NCBI RefSeq assembly: GCF_964204865.1
Contig: NC_135253.1
Location: 9,362,001-9,426,000, forward strand
Length of the DNA stretch: 64,000 nucleotides
Source: Styela clava
Lineage: Eukaryota
Direction of reading: 5' to 3'
The position numbers are program-made. This document shows, piece after piece, positions 42,001-54,000 of this stretch. Position 1 is the first letter of the stretch. Every line of letters begins with the position of its first letter.

Positions 42001-45000
42001 ATTAAAAAAACGCCGATGGTGGAGGAATGACGAAACTCTATCTTTTATGTCGTATTTATAATATTTTTACACATAGAATACTTCCAATATTCACATATTT
42101 ATTGTAATTGCTTGTTAGAAGTTGAATAAGATGAGTACATGATGCATGAGTACAAGATTCATTGTTATGGTACTTTTAAACTGTGTACTAAGTAGCTCTA
42201 TATTTTTTTTCATTTATTTTTTATTGAGGTTTTTATAAAATGAAACAATATTGCAATAAACAATATTCATAAAAACAATAACAGTAATTCATCATAATAA
42301 ACATATATTGCATTTTTACTCTGATTATATTACAAGAATTCTCTATTTTTTGCTATGTTTGACAATTTATTCTTTTTTCAATGCTAATTCTCTCTCGTTC
42401 TCTCGGAAGCTCTATATTTCACTCAAACTTGTCTATTTTTACGAATGTTGTGCCACCAGGCGACAGTGATATGCCATGGCGTCGGACTAGTCCGATGAAG
42501 GCAGTACAGTATTCGGCTGCTGTGTCCATATATTTGTCTGCTCTCTTGTTCTTGAACACGAAATGGGCATATGGATCGTTTTGTTATTCTTTTTGGTCTT
42601 TTTTTCTTGTTGTTACTGTATAAAAAAGCCCTTTTTATTAAGCAACTACTGATCCAATTGCTTCGAAATTCATTTCAGTAGTAAACGATTGTATTTTTCG
42701 CTAGAAAGCTATTACTTTCATTTATATCAAAACGTGAAAATCGGATGCTTTTTGATGGTACGGGTAATGTAAAAAAGGTAAAGTGGACTACTACTATACT
42801 TTGTTTTTCGTGTCCATATATTTGAGCATCGCTTTCCAAATCATGGGTTGTAGGACTCTTTAATGTTTTCACTAGCACTCGTGGAATTGAGTGATTGTGT
42901 CATATCCAACAGGATTTCTTTCCGTCTTTGTTTTACAGAGAAGGATCAGCACTTGCAACTGTTTTGTAATTTATTTTAATAAGCATTTGTATTAAATATA
43001 TTTAAAACAGAAAATGAGAAACAATAACATTCCATGCATTTACCATCACTTAATAAAATCTTCGTCATTCAATATGGAACTTAATGTATGTTGTATGTTT
43101 TCACTAGCACTCGTGGAATTGAGTGATTGTGTCATATCCAACATGATTTCTTTCCGTCTTTGTTTTACAGAGAAGGATCAGCACTTGCAACTGTTTTGTA
43201 ATTTATTTCAATAAGCATTTGTATTAAATATATTTAAAACAGAAAATGAGAAACAATAACATTCCATGCATTTACCATCACTTAATAAAATCTTCGTCAT
43301 TCAATATGGAACTTAATGTATGTTGTACATCCTGCTTGTTTATTCAGAACTTCAAACAATTTAAGTTGTGTCAGCAATGTTACATTACCGATGTTACATT
43401 AGAGTCTGTTAGACAATTCATATAACCCGTAGCATCTGAAAGCGGATGGTGAACCGGGATACAAGTTAATATCTATAGAACTTATACGGGGCTCCCGAAG
43501 TATGCGAACCAAGATGGCGGACATCGGAACGTAACATGGGTACTAGGTTAGGGTTAGGCCATAATTTTAGGTATAAATACCACGGGAGGCTCTTGGCTAG
43601 TCTTCGAATTGATAATAGGACCCTAACCTGTTACCCATGTTACGTTCCGATGTCCGCCATCTTGGTTCGCATACTTCGGGAGCACCACTTATACTCTATT
43701 GCAAGGATGGCGAACCGCCGACTTTGTGACCCATAACGTTTTTCCAATTACCAACCAAGTCCCAAATTCATGGAGAAATAGTGACATTTCAGTGATGAAA
43801 GTTGGTAATAAAGCAGGCCTTTGTTCGATTTAACAATAAGATAACCTACTGTGGTATGGAACGCAGCTACTGACAACGATTCTTATGACATAACAGTTGT
43901 ATATGTTCCTTTTTCCCAACTTGTCTTGATACATCGCAGGTACATTTACCACAGGGGTAAAATGTTTTTGATTTTGTGGTTTACAAGAACTATATCCTAA
44001 TTTGCAGCTTATCCTTTATCCGTATACAATGACTTTTAAAAAACAACATTTCGTAGACTTAACGACTATAAAGATTTGAAATAATAATGGAGCAGGATAG
44101 TAGTGACCATAATAGGATCGAAGGTCGATCGAAAAAAATAATGCTCTCAGATTGGCATTCCCTTCTAAACTATTTTGAAACTTTGAAAAGATATGCCACT
44201 GTATTATAAACGCTTTTTGACAATTCATATGTATGCAAATCCAAGTTTTCGCACAAGAATTTTATAAAATTGAGTGCCAGAGATCGCACCAGTCCTGATA
44301 TTCCACATTTATTGGCGCACGGACGCCGATGCCGGCGTCATCACTAGAGGCATCATTCACGGTTGTAGATGATTGCAATCCCCGCACGAGTGTCTCCGCG
44401 TCGTCCTACGTGTTTATGTTAATTGAACGTATTCGGTAGATTGGTTGAGCATAAATAATGAGAATGATCATAGTATCGGGCACTGCCAGTAATGGATACT
44501 GCATTCAACTCGCTCCCCTGTTGCTGGCAAAGCGAGGTTTGGTGATTTATGACAAGCACAACTATAAACAGTACGGGGAGGTGGAAGCACATCAGAGTCT
44601 TTGTCGCCTATTTCGACCTCTTCCTCTCTTGTCTTCAAGTAAGCTACGTAACCGGTAGACGCGGAGCATGTAACTCCTGTCGTAACGTAACCCTGTAAAA
44701 AGTGGACGAGTTTTTTTTTAAGTGGCATAGATCAATGCAATGAACTGACTAACAAAACGAGCTGAATGGACGACAGAGTATTTAATAGGTTTTTGTAAGG
44801 TGCGAATAATGCGAATAATGCAAAAGCGAATAATGCACTGAAACGCAATATCGATTAACAATTTGCAAGACTGATTACTCATTCTTCTTCCAATGGTTTA
44901 GCGTCTATAATACGACCGTGTTGTAACAATAATGAAGATGAGATGCCCACGAGTTTATTAGTAGATTTATGCTTATTTGAAGAAGTCAGACTTTTGATCA

Positions 45001-51000: not shown

Positions 51001-54000
51001 AAAAATAAAACTGTAAACAATATAAGTTTTGAGGCCCGCGACAGTCTAAAAACGCTTTTCTAGGCATCGAAAATCGCAAAATTTCGTGTGCCAACGGCAC
51101 AAATTATGTTTGCTTGACCTTTAAAAATATTTCGTTACTAAAATCGAAACACGGTCAATTGTGAGCGGGATTTGCCTTTTTATCCATTACTTTAAAATTG
51201 ACGTCGAAAATTTTCGTGTTAACATTAAACAAAGCTGAGAACGCGACTTTTCCACGGTTTGTGATGATATATAAGATAATTAAAGTATATTCGATCACTT
51301 TTTGTATTTATTTATGTATTTTTATTGTACTGAAATAACTTTTACTACGTGAGAATTGACAGAAAATTTACGGATTTTTCGAAAGGTTTTTTCCGTCGTG
51401 TTTTAGAGTGGCCCTTGTTTTGTCGACTCAACCGCAGTTTAAATTGAAGACAATTAAATTAATAAATCAAGACATTTTGAATATGCCCGTTTCTGTCTTT
51501 GATTGATTACTTTGCACAAGTGAAAAATCATTTTTCGTTGATGAAGTCGGCTCTATTAACAAGTGGCGTAATCGCGGCGACTGTTCCGCGTGGATTTCGA
51601 GGCGGTGTATTTGTATTTTTGATTTACTAGTATACCTTATAATTATTTTCATTGTATGAATTAAAATTGTACTATATCGGATTTTATATCAGATATCGAG
51701 ATTTTTGTAACGACGATAACGAGTTCGGAAGATTGCAAAAATACGTATCAAAATTAAATACATCAGGCAGCTTATCTCATATTTTTATGTCCACATATCG
51801 CCGTGGTACTTTAAGTTTAGTAATATTTTTATTTTGACGTAAGAAGTCGCAACCGCGAGTTATGTTGCACACAATTTAATATATAAGGACATTTTAGAAT
51901 CTCGTGGCTGTCATGGATCGACAGAAAAATCATTATACGCTCAAATAGGCGGCTCTTTTATTGAGCGCGTAATCGCGGTGCTTGTTGCAGACGGCAGTGG
52001 GAAGTTCCGACTTTGACCCCGCCCTTTTTTTTTAAATCCTGGCTGCGCGCCTGAACTTGTGCCTGTTTATTTTCGTATTAAATTATAAATAAAAACCCTG
52101 CCAAGTCATTGCGTGAATCCTGAATGTTATTTCGAGTTCAAATGATGATTTAATAAATCGGCAATAATGGCAATTCTACTAGTCAAATGATAATTCCTTG
52201 GTAAAATTTAGGAAACAAATTCGCACAATAGCTTGTTACTTTGTTTTGCATTTCTAATTTCACGAAACGGCGTTAGTGCGCTTTATGCAGAACTAGGAAT
52301 TGAAACAATAACCTAATACGACTCCTCAAATTTGTTATTTTCTGTATATTAGCAAGAGCCGTGGGCTAATTCTCGCGGAATTCAAGAAATTGGTTCAGTG
52401 ACGCGCAAGTTTCGTGTCCGAGCAAAGCAGCCTAGGTAATCGATATATGAGTAGCAAACTGACATGCTAATACTTAGAGAATGACATCGACAGGTTATTG
52501 TTACGTGACGATACACGGCGCGGTGTTTTTCGGTAGGCGATCCAAGTTCGCCCCCCCAAAATTATGGAAAGTGTCCGCCCCTGCGTGACTCCCGCTATAG
52601 ACAGACGCACTGATTTGAAGCAGCGCATTATATCCATAACAGCATCAACAACTAAATAAGGGTAATCTTTACTATATTTTTGTATATGCATCGCAACTGT
52701 CAAAATTCATGATGATGGTTTCAAATATCCCATTTCGGGTGGTGCTCTTATTATATAGAGATTAAAAATGACCAAAATCGGTATACAATTGTGATTAAAT
52801 ACCTGCATCCGTTTACATATTTTTCTTCCTCGATTTCACTCATAATAAGAGCAATACATTTCTAAATTTACCATCTTCTTCGCGAATTCTATAAGTTTAA
52901 ATTAGAAGCTGACAATATAAAATACGATAATACAATGATACTTCAAAGCAATCAACACTATTGGTAAAAACTATTAACAACTGGCAGCAGAAGGCTGTAT
53001 ATAATTTGCCAGTAAGAGCAAGAATAGTAAAATATTTGAGTCAAACTAATATTGTCGATTTTGGCAGACCTATTGTTAGCGAGTATCGTGACCTTGCAAT
53101 TTGTGAACTGCTTTATAAATTTTGCGGTAAATGAAGCACTTTATATTAGCAGTTTCTGAGTACATTTAAAATTTTCAGACTTGTACAAATATTACTAACT
53201 ATTTTTCCATGCAAATATTGGAGTGCCTAACTGACGAGTAAAATTTCCCACGGCTTACAATCCAATCATCTCAACTATAAAACGCGATATAATGTTTAGA
53301 AACAATGCTACTAATACTGAAGACAACGAACACTATTACCTACAAATATAAAAACAAATTATTCTGTAGCCATATTGACTGCAAACTCAATCATACAATT
53401 ATGCACTAGATTTGTATACAAATAACATTTATCATAGTATTTTTGAATACTAATATATGTACAACTTAGTTCACCCGGTTTGTTTGTATCACTTTGTTTT
53501 AAAACAAACTGCCGCAAGGGAAAACTTTTTCGAACGTTAGGCTCCCTGGAGGCATAATTTACGTCTACCGACATTGCTACATCAAACTTAGGCAAGCGGA
53601 ACAATGACAAACATATCGTCATTTCTAAATACGGTCAAAGCGAACGAGCTTAGCACACAACCGAACACGCTTGCGAATGCGCGAAAACTTGTTATGACTA
53701 TCGAAGATGGAATTTCTAATTTCAATGTCGGCTTTAGAATAGAGTACGTTCCCATAAATTAGTCAGACTCGATAAAAGCCATGCGCGTGAAAATTAAATA
53801 CAAACGAACAATGCGAGATAAATTCAGTCTGTCTATCTCGATCATATCCAACGCCAATTTCTCACTGCGTACATCCAAAGTACTGTCAATTTGGCGGAGC
53901 TTTAATCCCATTCAGCTATTATTGTTTTCGAATGATTTGATTAGGAAGTGGAACCGCTTCTAAACCTTTTCGACTACGTAGTGTCTGTGGCCACCAAATT

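What the first reader, a model, noticed from the sequence alone, without database searches (positions are those of the whole stretch)
44468..52843. Hidden 9-exon type II receptor-like protein with an unrecognised 6-Cys C-terminal domain
Seen: nine phase-compatible exons give a 537-aa protein that the ORF track shows only in fragments. It has a ~320-aa disordered cytoplasmic N-terminus, one TM preceded by basic/Cys residues (KKPPIKCFRC), a glycosylated heptad-like stalk, and a compact domain NC-x-TC-x-YSCAC-x-ECSIHYWQCP. Knowledge: TM-stalk-terminal domain is the layout of trimeric class A scavenger receptors, type II C-type lectins and TNF/EDA ligands, but this domain lacks SRCR, CTLD, fibrinogen, C1q and TNF signatures. 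Inference: I recall a similar C-x-x-HYW-x-CP ending on uncharacterised cnidarian/sponge collagen-like proteins. This may be a collagen-less member of an unnamed invertebrate receptor family (innate immunity or adhesion).
Basis: partly seen in the sequence, partly recalled or inferred. Interest (0 to 1): 0.75.

Follow-up and report, generated by a model that had tools for sequence, protein, structure and literature searches.

The report
Unclassified type II membrane protein gene
A spliced animal-type gene on the minus strand most likely encodes a single-pass membrane protein whose small cysteine-bearing outer domain matches no catalogued family; it looks real but is probably an ordinary lineage-restricted gene of unknown role.

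Summary
On the minus strand, nine GT..AG-bounded, phase-compatible exons (52843-44471) sum to 1611 nt, which is 537 aa. The signal exceeds chance. The exon 2 open stretch is the 2nd longest of 7243 in the window. Splice sites score far above background. A gene-chain score beats 100 of 100 shuffles. Codon-position composition and exon/intron G+C contrast are coding-like. Layout: a polar N-terminal part of about 320 aa, one strong hydrophobic helix with basic residues on the N side only, about four heptads plus a second helix, three N-x-S/T sequons, then about 108 aa with six Cys. Searched exon by exon, no piece reaches a Pfam cut-off, and there is no PDB, Atlas or Foldseek match. The weak points are exon 1 and the exon 8 acceptor. 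Modest interest.

The parts
52803..52843 (-).
   Evidence: Read. It has the best donor (score 5) of 10 phase-fitting ATG..GT candidates within 4.3 kb upstream of E2. Its G+C of 0.366 is intron-like. My naive chain finder prefers 52691-52505 joined to acceptor 50185.
49745..50169 (-). Exon 2, 425 nt, polar cytoplasmic part
   Evidence: Its open stretch of 183 codons is the 2nd longest of 7243 in the window. Donor score 5, acceptor score 10. G+C 0.419 against 0.371 and 0.324 in the flanking introns. Polar share 0.70. No Pfam or PDB match.
49074..49324 (-). Exon 3, 251 nt, polar and basic cytoplasmic part with a YEEL motif
   Evidence: Recovered exactly by the independent chain finder at lambda 5, 6, 7 and 9 but dropped at lambda 11. 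Open stretch of 111 codons. Motif found. Only sub-threshold matches.
48441..48577 (-). Exon 4, 137 nt, polar cytoplasmic part
   Evidence: The acceptor was recovered by the chain finder but the donor differed. Polar share 0.80. No Pfam family. Not searched in PDB.
47403..47605 (-). Exon 5: NPMY/YAGL motif, basic and Cys-bearing juxtamembrane stretch, transmembrane helix
   Evidence: Recovered exactly by the chain finder at every lambda. Features.
47584..47595 (-). NPxY motif (NPMY), overlapping YAGL, about 30 residues before the helix
   Evidence: A short motif that can arise by chance.
47416..47484 (-). Core of the single transmembrane helix (23 residues)
   Evidence: Kyte-Doolittle mean of 2.9 over 23 residues. 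The 15 residues before it hold 4 K/R and 0 D/E. After it there are 0 K/R and 1 D/E. No other exon piece exceeds 0.68 over 19 residues.
46492..46580 (-). Exon 6, start of the stalk, one N-x-T sequon, heptad register
   Evidence: Recovered exactly by the chain finder. Register 1 has 5 of 8 hydrophobic a/d positions.
46094..46232 (-). Exon 7, helical stalk, two N-I-S sequons
   Evidence: Recovered by the chain finder at lambda 5 and 6. Register 0 continues E6 register 1 across the phase-0 junction. Single-sequence AF2: pLDDT 76.9, helices at 2-10, 13-18 and 20-40.
45277..45380 (-). Exon 8, first part of the C-terminal domain, holding the first of six Cys
   Evidence: Donor score 5, acceptor only 6. 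It ranks 5th of 17 phase-fitting bridges by splice score. Its G+C of 0.404 is exon-like, against 0.255-0.295 for the three alternatives checked. R1 is 0.74 and G1 is 0.38.
44471..44692 (-). Exon 9, second part of the C-terminal domain, five Cys, ends ...CPIL
   Evidence: Recovered exactly by the chain finder at every lambda. G+C 0.486. No Pfam, PDB or Atlas match. Single-sequence AF2: pLDDT 55.8, four strands. Foldseek: 0 of 51 matches at E<=0.001.
44468..44470 (-). Stop codon (TGA)
44308..44313 (-). AATAAA, a candidate polyadenylation signal 157 nt after the stop

Best explanation
This is a genuine spliced protein-coding gene of an AT-rich animal genome. I did not take the contig for human. 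It encodes a single-pass type II (N-in, C-out) membrane protein of about 540 aa.

Shown by computation:
- the exon chain
- its coding-like statistics
- one strong hydrophobic helix with basic residues on its N side only
- a helical stalk with about four heptads
- a C-terminal part with six Cys that no library recognises

Inferred: the polar N-terminal part of about 320 aa is a flexible cytoplasmic tail. It carries short docking or sorting motifs (NPMY overlapping YAGL, and YEEL) and two juxtamembrane Cys that could be acylated. The stalk oligomerises the protein. The stalk carries N-glycans at up to three sequons. It presents a small, strand-rich, disulfide-bonded head of about 108 aa at the cell surface, where the head binds a partner and the tail couples this to endocytosis or signalling. 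On this reading the protein works like an oligomeric type II surface receptor but belongs to no named family. It is most likely a lineage-restricted gene.
For: Exon chain of 1611 nt (537 aa), with all eight introns GT..AG and phases fitting.

Long open stretches: the E2 stretch is the 2nd longest of 7243 in the window and the E3 stretch is among the 12 longest.

Splice sites:
- Mean donor score is 5.0 of 7, against 2.25 for 6847 background GT sites.
- Mean acceptor score is 10.0 of 14, against 6.96 for 5913 background AG sites.
- Of 200,000 random draws of 8 sites, 0 reached the donor mean and a share of 1e-5 reached the acceptor mean. These figures are not corrected for selection.

Chain score with selection built in:
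- Observed 40.8, 26.4 and 16.2 at intron penalties 7, 9 and 11.
- 0 of 100 dinucleotide shuffles reached these values (shuffle maxima 28.1, 15.7, 14.0).
- The same region on the + strand scores 9.0.
- The only other tiles above 12.2 are one overlapping this gene (19.5) and one with the neighbouring GPCR exon (19.2).

Codon-position composition: G+C is 0.487/0.414/0.364 and purine at position 1 is 0.597. The GPCR exon gives 0.46/0.43/0.39. A set of 295 non-genic open stretches gives 0.374/0.354/0.362 and 0.531. Resampling gives P=0.0036.

Exon/intron contrast: each of E2-E9 has G+C of 0.394-0.486, higher than both of its flanking introns (0.324-0.375).

E7 is predicted helical. AATAAA lies 157 nt after the stop. 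There is no repeat or paralogue of any exon in the window.
Against: There is no transcript evidence and no homologue, so coding and splicing rest on statistics from one sequence.

E1 is not distinguishable from intron by composition. A different first exon is preferred by my chain finder, and three G+C-richer patches in intron 1 are unexplained.

The E8 acceptor is weak, and E8 is 5th of 17 phase-fitting bridges by splice score.

The naive chain finder adds or changes exons and does not reproduce the model in full.

AF2 on E9 alone is of low confidence (pLDDT 55.8).

Atlas 'recognition' values are low (1507 and 1809, against 2300 reached by most known families), though the tool states this does not show whether a gene is real.

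The heptad run is short.

NPxY, YxxL, the sequons and the acylatable Cys are short motifs that occur by chance.

Nothing here bears on surface location, oligomeric state, ligand or function.
Confidence: 0.6

Rival explanations
1. The gene is real, but the 537-aa product is wrong at its ends or in detail. The true first coding exon lies elsewhere, for example in one of the G+C-richer patches of 'intron 1'. Alternatively, E8 has another acceptor or partner exon. Either would change the length, the N-terminus, and perhaps the Cys count of the head.
For: E1 has intron-like G+C of 0.366. The chain finder prefers 52691-52505 (G+C 0.455) joined to a strong acceptor at 50185 with score 12. Three G+C-richer patches lie inside intron 1. 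The E8 acceptor scores 6, at the 75th percentile of background. There are 17 phase-fitting bridges between E7 and E9.
Against: Given the acceptor at 50169, E1 has the best donor of 10 candidates, and it has a purine at -3 of its ATG. The alternative first exon shows no clear codon-position pattern: 0.48/0.45/0.42, much like its other frames. It has no Pfam match. The three alternatives to E8 that were checked have intron-like G+C of 0.255-0.295 and AT-rich, non-protein-like translations.
Confidence: 0.35
2. The chain is a chance assembly of open stretches, or a decayed pseudogene, and makes no functional protein.
For: In a window with 658 open stretches of 40 codons or more, phase-fitting chains can be built almost anywhere. 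The naive chain finder over-predicts exons here. No homologue, family or transcript supports the gene.
Against: 0 of 100 shuffles reach the observed chain score at three penalties. The 183-codon stretch ranks 2nd of 7243. Codon-position composition matches the neighbouring GPCR exon and not the 295 non-genic open stretches. Each of E2-E9 is richer in G+C than its flanking introns. The translated product is organised as polar tail, one helix with a charge asymmetry, helical stalk, and an even Cys count outside. There are no stops or frame breaks.
Confidence: 0.08
3. It is a membrane-anchored ligand rather than a receptor. Like TNF or ectodysplasin family members, the head would be released from the stalk and act on other cells.
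For: It shares the layout of type II anchor, stalk and small C-terminal head. That TNF/EDA ligands have this layout is established knowledge, recalled here.
Against: There is no TNF-family match on E8 or E9. The head of about 108 aa is shorter than a TNF homology domain (size recalled). There are 0 RxxR and 0 dibasic sites in E6-E9. The long tail with NPxY and YxxL motifs suits a receptor better (inference).
Confidence: 0.1
4. It is an internal-membrane (ER, Golgi or nuclear-envelope) type II protein. The head would face the lumen and have a structural or trafficking role rather than surface recognition.
For: Type II topology with a coiled-coil lumenal stalk is also common among Golgi and ER residents (established knowledge, recalled). 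Nothing here shows surface location.
Against: Golgi and ER type II residents usually have short cytoplasmic tails (recalled), whereas this one is about 320 aa. NPxY and YxxL motifs are typical of plasma-membrane and endocytic sorting (recalled). No retention motif was looked for beyond the motifs.
Confidence: 0.15

Closest known systems
Class A scavenger receptors (SR-A1, MARCO, SCARA5, collectin-12)
   Same: Type II single-pass topology, a helical or coiled-coil stalk with N-glycan sequons, and a Cys-containing C-terminal head. The layout of the known family is recalled.
   Different: There is no Gly-X-Y collagenous run in any exon peptide. No SRCR, C-type lectin or collagen family appears on E6-E9 at E<=10. 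The cytoplasmic part here is about 320 aa, far longer than in that family (recalled).
Type II C-type lectin receptors (CD23, DC-SIGN, asialoglycoprotein receptor, LOX-1)
   Same: N-in anchor, coiled-coil neck, a head of about 110-130 aa with three disulfides, and tyrosine-based sorting motifs in the tail (layout recalled; features here).
   Different: There is no Lectin_C match on E8 or E9. The head has a single Trp and lacks the Trp-rich core pattern of that fold (pattern recalled; peptides).
TNF / ectodysplasin ligands
   Same: Type II anchor, stalk and C-terminal strand-rich head (predicts strands, at low confidence).
   Different: There is no TNF family match. The head is too short (size recalled). 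The stalk has no furin-type site.
NPxY-tailed engulfment and endocytic receptors (LDL-receptor family, CED-1/Draper/MEGF10)
   Same: The tail holds an NPxY motif and YxxL motifs. These are the docking sites used by that group (recalled).
   Different: Those are type I proteins with EGF or LDL-A repeats. No such domain is present here and the topology is opposite.

Membership tests
Class A scavenger receptors | Collagenous Gly-X-Y domain in the ectodomain | tested here: not met
   No Collagen family on E6-E9 at E<=10. No Gly-X-Y run in the exon peptides printed.
Class A scavenger receptors | SRCR or C-type lectin domain at the C-terminus (in the members that have a head) | tested here: not met
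   0 Pfam families on E8 and on E9 at E<=10. Searching exon by exon lowers sensitivity for a domain split 34 + 74 aa.
Class A scavenger receptors | Type II topology with a coiled-coil stalk | tested here: met
   One helix with 4 K/R before it and 0 after. The heptad register is continuous over the E6/E7 junction, with 8 of 9 a/d positions hydrophobic by index arithmetic. E7 is predicted helical. This is a prediction, not an experiment.
Type II C-type lectin receptors | C-type lectin-like domain | tested here: not met
   No Lectin_C match on E8 or E9. No PDB sequence match at E<=10.
TNF / ectodysplasin ligands | TNF homology domain | tested here: not met
   No TNF family on E7-E9. Foldseek with the low-confidence E9 model gave 0 of 51 matches at E<=0.001.
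TNF / ectodysplasin ligands | Proteolytic release site in the stalk (furin-type, as in ectodysplasin) | tested here: not met
   0 RxxR and 0 dibasic sites in E6-E9. Sites of other sheddases cannot be read from sequence.
C1q-like and fibrinogen-related proteins | C1q or fibrinogen C-terminal globular domain | tested here: not met
   No such family on E8 or E9 at E<=10.
The Atlas gave no usable hit for E9. The word search of papers found 0 papers with either of the two HYW-containing strings.
Immunoglobulin-like domains (my own lead, from recall of the residues that surround the two conserved Cys of variable domains) | A match to an Ig-family profile, or a two-sheet sandwich with the B-F disulfide | tested here: inconclusive
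   No Ig-type Pfam family on E9 at E<=10. AF2 predicts four strands at pLDDT 55.8. Foldseek gave no Ig match and nothing at E<=0.001. The spacing of 36 residues between the two Cys is short for that fold (recalled).

The most novel reading that the evidence does not exclude
The roughly 108-aa six-Cys head (E8 + E9) is a fold or sequence family not yet catalogued. Together with the NPxY-bearing tail and the short coiled coil, it would define a lineage-restricted family of oligomeric type II surface receptors in invertebrates.
Probability: 0.15. Interest if true: 0.55.

Novelty: new variant of a known kind. Interest (0 to 1): 0.3.

Why it matters
If the model is right, gene finders that rely on homology may miss this locus or annotate it only as a hypothetical protein. 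It would add one more head type to the recurrent 'type II anchor, coiled-coil stalk, small disulfide-bonded head' design used by scavenger receptors, lectin receptors and TNF-type ligands. However, genes without a Pfam domain are common in invertebrate genomes (general knowledge). One such gene, with no homologue, transcript or function in hand, settles no open question. Its value lies in being a well-defined candidate for transcript and profile-search follow-up.

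Tried and rejected
**Family and structure searches, exon by exon**
- Pfam on 8 of the 9 exons (E1, at 13 aa, is too short). 0 of 8 pieces reached a curated cut-off. Sub-threshold rows appeared on only 2 pieces: bZIP_1 E=0.19 on E3, and PHDvar_NSD E=0.012 and Chordopox_A33R E=0.14 on E5. 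I rejected these as noise from basic, Cys-bearing and hydrophobic stretches.
- PDB sequence search on 6 of 8 pieces (E2, E3, E5, E7, E8, E9; E4 and E6 were not searched). The best E-values were 0.25, 0.38 and 0.85, from a GPCR helix, an antibody hybrid and BRCC36. All rejected.
- ESM Atlas on E9 gave no usable hit. On E5 the best score was 0.82, a level the tool says shuffled proteins reach a third of the time.
- AF2 on E9 alone gave pLDDT 55.8. Foldseek against PDB then gave 51 matches at E<=10 and 0 at E<=0.001 (best E=2.4, TM-score by query at most 0.26). These are meaningless for a low-confidence model and were not followed up. The 'viral' Foldseek library was not tried for the same reason.

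**Other negative searches**
- The search for related loci with E9 in prokaryotic genomes: 248 pattern matches, 0 confirmed.
- Rfam: 0 at gathering thresholds over the window. One sub-threshold row (sucC, E=0.16) over 43300-53500.
- tRNA scan: 0.
- tblastn of the 8 exon peptides against the window: self hits only, best other E=0.24.
- Pfam on open stretches of alternative exons and of the opposite strand: nothing at E<=0.1.
- Paper searches. One search returned 5 papers, each holding only one of the three strings once, with unrelated titles (listing seen only). One search returned 3 papers, none on such a family (listing and abstract starts seen). One search returned 0 papers.

**Considered from memory and rejected for want of any hit**
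Sarcoglycans, BRICHOS proteins, TMEM106, CTHRC1, the collagen IV NC1 domain, cystine-knot factors, saposin, PAN/apple and neurexophilin.

**Errors of mine**
- In one search the row for E8 reports a stretch in the wrong frame (88 codons). The right one is 69 codons, 45187-45393.
- One search was an empty script.
It was corrected and sent again.

No search or fold of the joined 537-aa product or of the joined E8+E9 head.

**Unchecked because closed or not held**
Transcript data and eukaryotic genome collections are not held.

Full report
**Scope and rules**

The window has no N. It is AT-rich, with G+C of 0.30-0.40 in 2-kb steps. I did not take it for human. The joined 537-aa product and the joined E8+E9 head were neither searched nor folded.

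**1. Is the observation there?**

Yes. The gene is on the minus strand. From the three-frame open stretches and the codon-level display I rebuilt the exons:

| Exon | Coordinates | Note |
|---|---|---|
| E1 | 52843-52803 | starts with ATG |
| E2 | 50169-49745 | |
| E3 | 49324-49074 | |
| E4 | 48577-48441 | |
| E5 | 47605-47403 | holds the TM helix |
| E6 | 46580-46492 | |
| E7 | 46232-46094 | |
| E8 | 45380-45277 | |
| E9 | 44692-44471 | stop at 44470-44468 |

All eight introns are GT..AG. The phases (2,1,0,2,1,0,1,0) fit, and the five split codons are sense codons. The mechanical ORF list shows the gene only in fragments.

**2. Is it more than chance?**

A phase-fitting chain alone is weak evidence here, because the window holds 658 open stretches of 40 codons or more.

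(a) Open-stretch length. The stretch around E2 (183 codons) is the 2nd longest of 7243 in the window. Only the GPCR exon is longer. The stretch around E3 (111 codons) is among the 12 longest. The E8 row is in the wrong frame. The right stretch is 69 codons.

(b) Splice sites.
- Against a generic consensus, the eight donors average 5.0 of 7, versus 2.25 for all 6847 GT sites.
- The eight acceptors average 10.0 of 14, versus 6.96 for all 5913 AG sites.
- Of 200,000 random draws of eight sites, 0 reached the donor mean and a share of 1e-5 reached the acceptor mean.
- This is not corrected for the choice among nearby sites.

(c) Chain score with selection built in. I wrote a small chain finder. 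It scores stop-free length plus site log-odds minus a penalty per intron, and requires an ATG start and a stop end. I ran it on the region, on 100 dinucleotide shuffles and on 14 other tiles.

| Intron penalty | Observed | Shuffle mean | Shuffle max | Shuffles reaching observed |
|---|---|---|---|---|
| 7 | 40.8 | 16.4 | 28.1 | 0 of 100 |
| 9 | 26.4 | 8.2 | 15.7 | 0 of 100 |
| 11 | 16.2 | 6.9 | 14.0 | 0 of 100 |

- At penalty 9, the + strand of the same region scores 9.0.
- The only other tiles above 12.2 are one overlapping this gene (19.5) and the one with the GPCR's last exon (19.2).
That is above every shuffle at penalties 7 and 9, but below the shuffle mean at 11, where eight introns cost too much.
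- The finder recovers E5, E6 and E9 exactly at every penalty tried. It recovers E3 exactly at penalties 5, 6, 7 and 9 but drops it at 11, and recovers E7 at penalties 5 and 6. It recovers the E2 donor, the E4 acceptor and the E8 donor.
- It also adds or alters exons. It is a null test, not a gene model.

(d) Codon-position composition.
- Pooled over E2-E9, G+C at positions 1/2/3 is 0.487/0.414/0.364, and purine at position 1 is 0.597.
- This is close to the GPCR exon (0.46/0.43/0.39; 0.59).
- It is unlike 295 open stretches of 45 codons or more outside both genes (0.374/0.354/0.362; 0.531).
- Resampling gives P=0.0036.

(e) Exon/intron contrast. Each of E2-E9 has G+C of 0.394-0.486, above both of its flanking introns (0.324-0.375). 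Pooled values are 0.421 over 1611 nt against 0.352 over 6762 nt.

An AATAAA lies 157 nt after the stop. No exon is repeated in the window. I conclude that E2-E9 are very probably coding.

**3. Weak points of the model**

- **E1.** It is the best of 10 phase-fitting ATG..GT candidates in the 4.3 kb upstream of E2 (donor score 5, purine at -3). But it is 41 nt long and has intron-like G+C of 0.366.
- **An alternative first exon.** My finder prefers 52691-52505 (G+C 0.455) joined to a strong alternative acceptor at 50185 with score 12. Its codon-position pattern is not clearly coding and it has no Pfam match.
- **Intron 1.** It holds three G+C-richer patches (50250-50775, 51900-52124, 52350-52700). 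Nothing I ran explains them.
- **E8.** The acceptor (...ATCAAAG|GA) scores 6, near the background median. E8 is 5th of 17 phase-fitting single-exon bridges between E7 and E9 by splice score.
- **In favour of E8.** The three alternatives I checked (ranks 1, 2 and 6) have G+C of 0.255-0.295 and AT-rich translations. E8 has G+C of 0.404, purine at position 1 of 0.74 and the best donor.
- **Consequence.** E8 carries the first of the six Cys, so the '6-Cys' count rests on it. E9 alone has five Cys.

**4. What the product looks like, read exon by exon**

- **Tail.** E1 is acidic and has no signal-peptide-like start. E2-E4 (141, 83 and 45 aa pieces) are 70-80% polar residues and have no hydrophobic segment: the 19-residue Kyte-Doolittle maximum is 0.65 or less. 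They hold one Cys. This fits a flexible cytoplasmic tail, but disorder is inferred from composition only.
- **Membrane anchor.** E5 holds NPMY overlapping YAGL, then the basic and Cys-bearing stretch KKPPIKCFRC. A 23-residue window of mean hydropathy 2.9 follows. There are 4 K/R and 0 D/E in the 15 residues before it, and 0 K/R and 1 D/E after it. By the positive-inside rule (established knowledge), this places the N-terminus in the cytoplasm.
- **Stalk.** E6 register 1 (5 of 8 hydrophobic a/d positions) continues as E7 register 0 across the phase-0 junction. Over the run from the fourth a/d position of E6 to the fourth of E7, 8 of 9 positions are hydrophobic. That is about four heptads, by index arithmetic. 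This continuity is a small internal check of that junction.
- **E7 structure.** Folded alone, E7 is mostly helical (pLDDT 76.9; helices 2-10, 13-18, 20-40).
- **Sequons.** The stalk has three N-x-S/T sequons.
- **Head.** E8 (34 aa piece, 1 Cys) and E9 (74 aa, 5 Cys) give about 108 aa with six Cys. E9 alone is predicted as four strands around an acidic loop, but at pLDDT 55.8.
- **Cleavage sites.** E6-E9 hold no RxxR or dibasic site.

**5. Comparison with what is known**

- **Pfam.** 0 of 8 exon pieces reach a cut-off, and E6-E9 have no row at all at E<=10.
- **PDB sequences.** 0 of the 6 pieces searched have a match better than E=0.25. E4 and E6 were not searched.
- **Atlas.** There is no usable hit for E9. 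The best score for E5 is 0.82, a level shuffled sequences often reach.
- **Foldseek.** 0 of 51 matches at E<=0.001.
- **Prokaryotic genomes.** 0 confirmed relatives.
- **Papers.** Nothing relevant.

The caveat is that a domain split 34 + 74 aa is searched with less power.

My own lead was that the residues around the second and third Cys recall the framework around the two Cys of immunoglobulin variable domains. It found no support.

**6. Most likely mechanism**

I commit to a type II single-pass membrane glycoprotein.
- Its short coiled coil oligomerises it. The number of chains is unknown.
- Its small disulfide-bonded head binds a partner outside the cell.
- Its long flexible tail, with NPxY and YxxL-type motifs and acylatable juxtamembrane Cys, couples binding to endocytosis or adaptor recruitment.

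Gene structure, coding signal, the helix and its charge asymmetry, the helical stalk and the Cys count are shown by computation. Topology follows from an established rule. Everything about location, oligomer, glycans, ligand and signalling is inferred by analogy of layout.

The rivals are a partly wrong model (above all at the 5' end), a shed ligand, an internal-membrane protein, and a chance chain or pseudogene. They are weighed in their own sections.

**7. Novelty and verdict**

The layout is a known kind, and the head is unrecognised by every library I could use. I therefore file it as a new variant of a known kind, without membership in any named family.

Proteins without a catalogued domain are common in invertebrate genomes (general knowledge). 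The searches that could show relatives were closed. The gene may well already sit in a public annotation as a hypothetical protein. Interest is modest at 0.3. The boldest reading not excluded is a new head domain defining an invertebrate type II receptor family. I give it a probability of about 0.15.

**8. Surroundings**

- The gene is convergent with a rhodopsin-family GPCR on the + strand, with exons at 23283-23651 and 36509-37264.
- Between them lie a 232-nt unit repeated twice (42863-43327) and a MITE-like inverted repeat (43475-43699). The inverted repeat has a copy at 7746-7981.
- The + strand of the locus shows no gene-like signal: chain score 9.0, and no Pfam match on its two longest open stretches.

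Noticed in passing
window 23283-23651 and 36509-37264, + strand: Two exons of a rhodopsin-family GPCR (7tm_1 E=6.4e-13 and 3.2e-07). The gene is convergent with the gene of the finding. Its other exons were not mapped.
   Followed up: partly
window 43475-43699 and 7746-7981: MITE-like elements, each with inverted arms of about 80 nt (86-89% complementary) and a loop of 65-74 nt. The two copies are 91-93% alike. The first lies about 770 nt 3' of the gene's stop.
   Followed up: no
window 42863-43327: A 232-nt unit repeated twice head to tail at 99% identity.
   Followed up: no
window 50250-50775, 51900-52124, 52350-52700 (inside intron 1 of the model): Three patches of G+C at 0.41-0.52 within sequence of 0.29-0.37, with runs of G and C near 50450-50500. 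There is no Rfam match above threshold and no Pfam match. They could be missed 5' exons or repeat fragments.
   Followed up: partly
window 25440-25549, 32617-32726, 59144-59204, 9767-9856: A dispersed repeat of about 60-100 nt in four places, in both orientations, at 77-83% identity.
   Followed up: no
donor sites at window 49073, 48440, 47402, 46093 (minus strand): Four of the eight donors have T at position +3 (GTTAGT twice, GTTAGA, GTTTGA). This may be a trait of this genome's splice sites, but eight sites are too few to tell.
   Followed up: no
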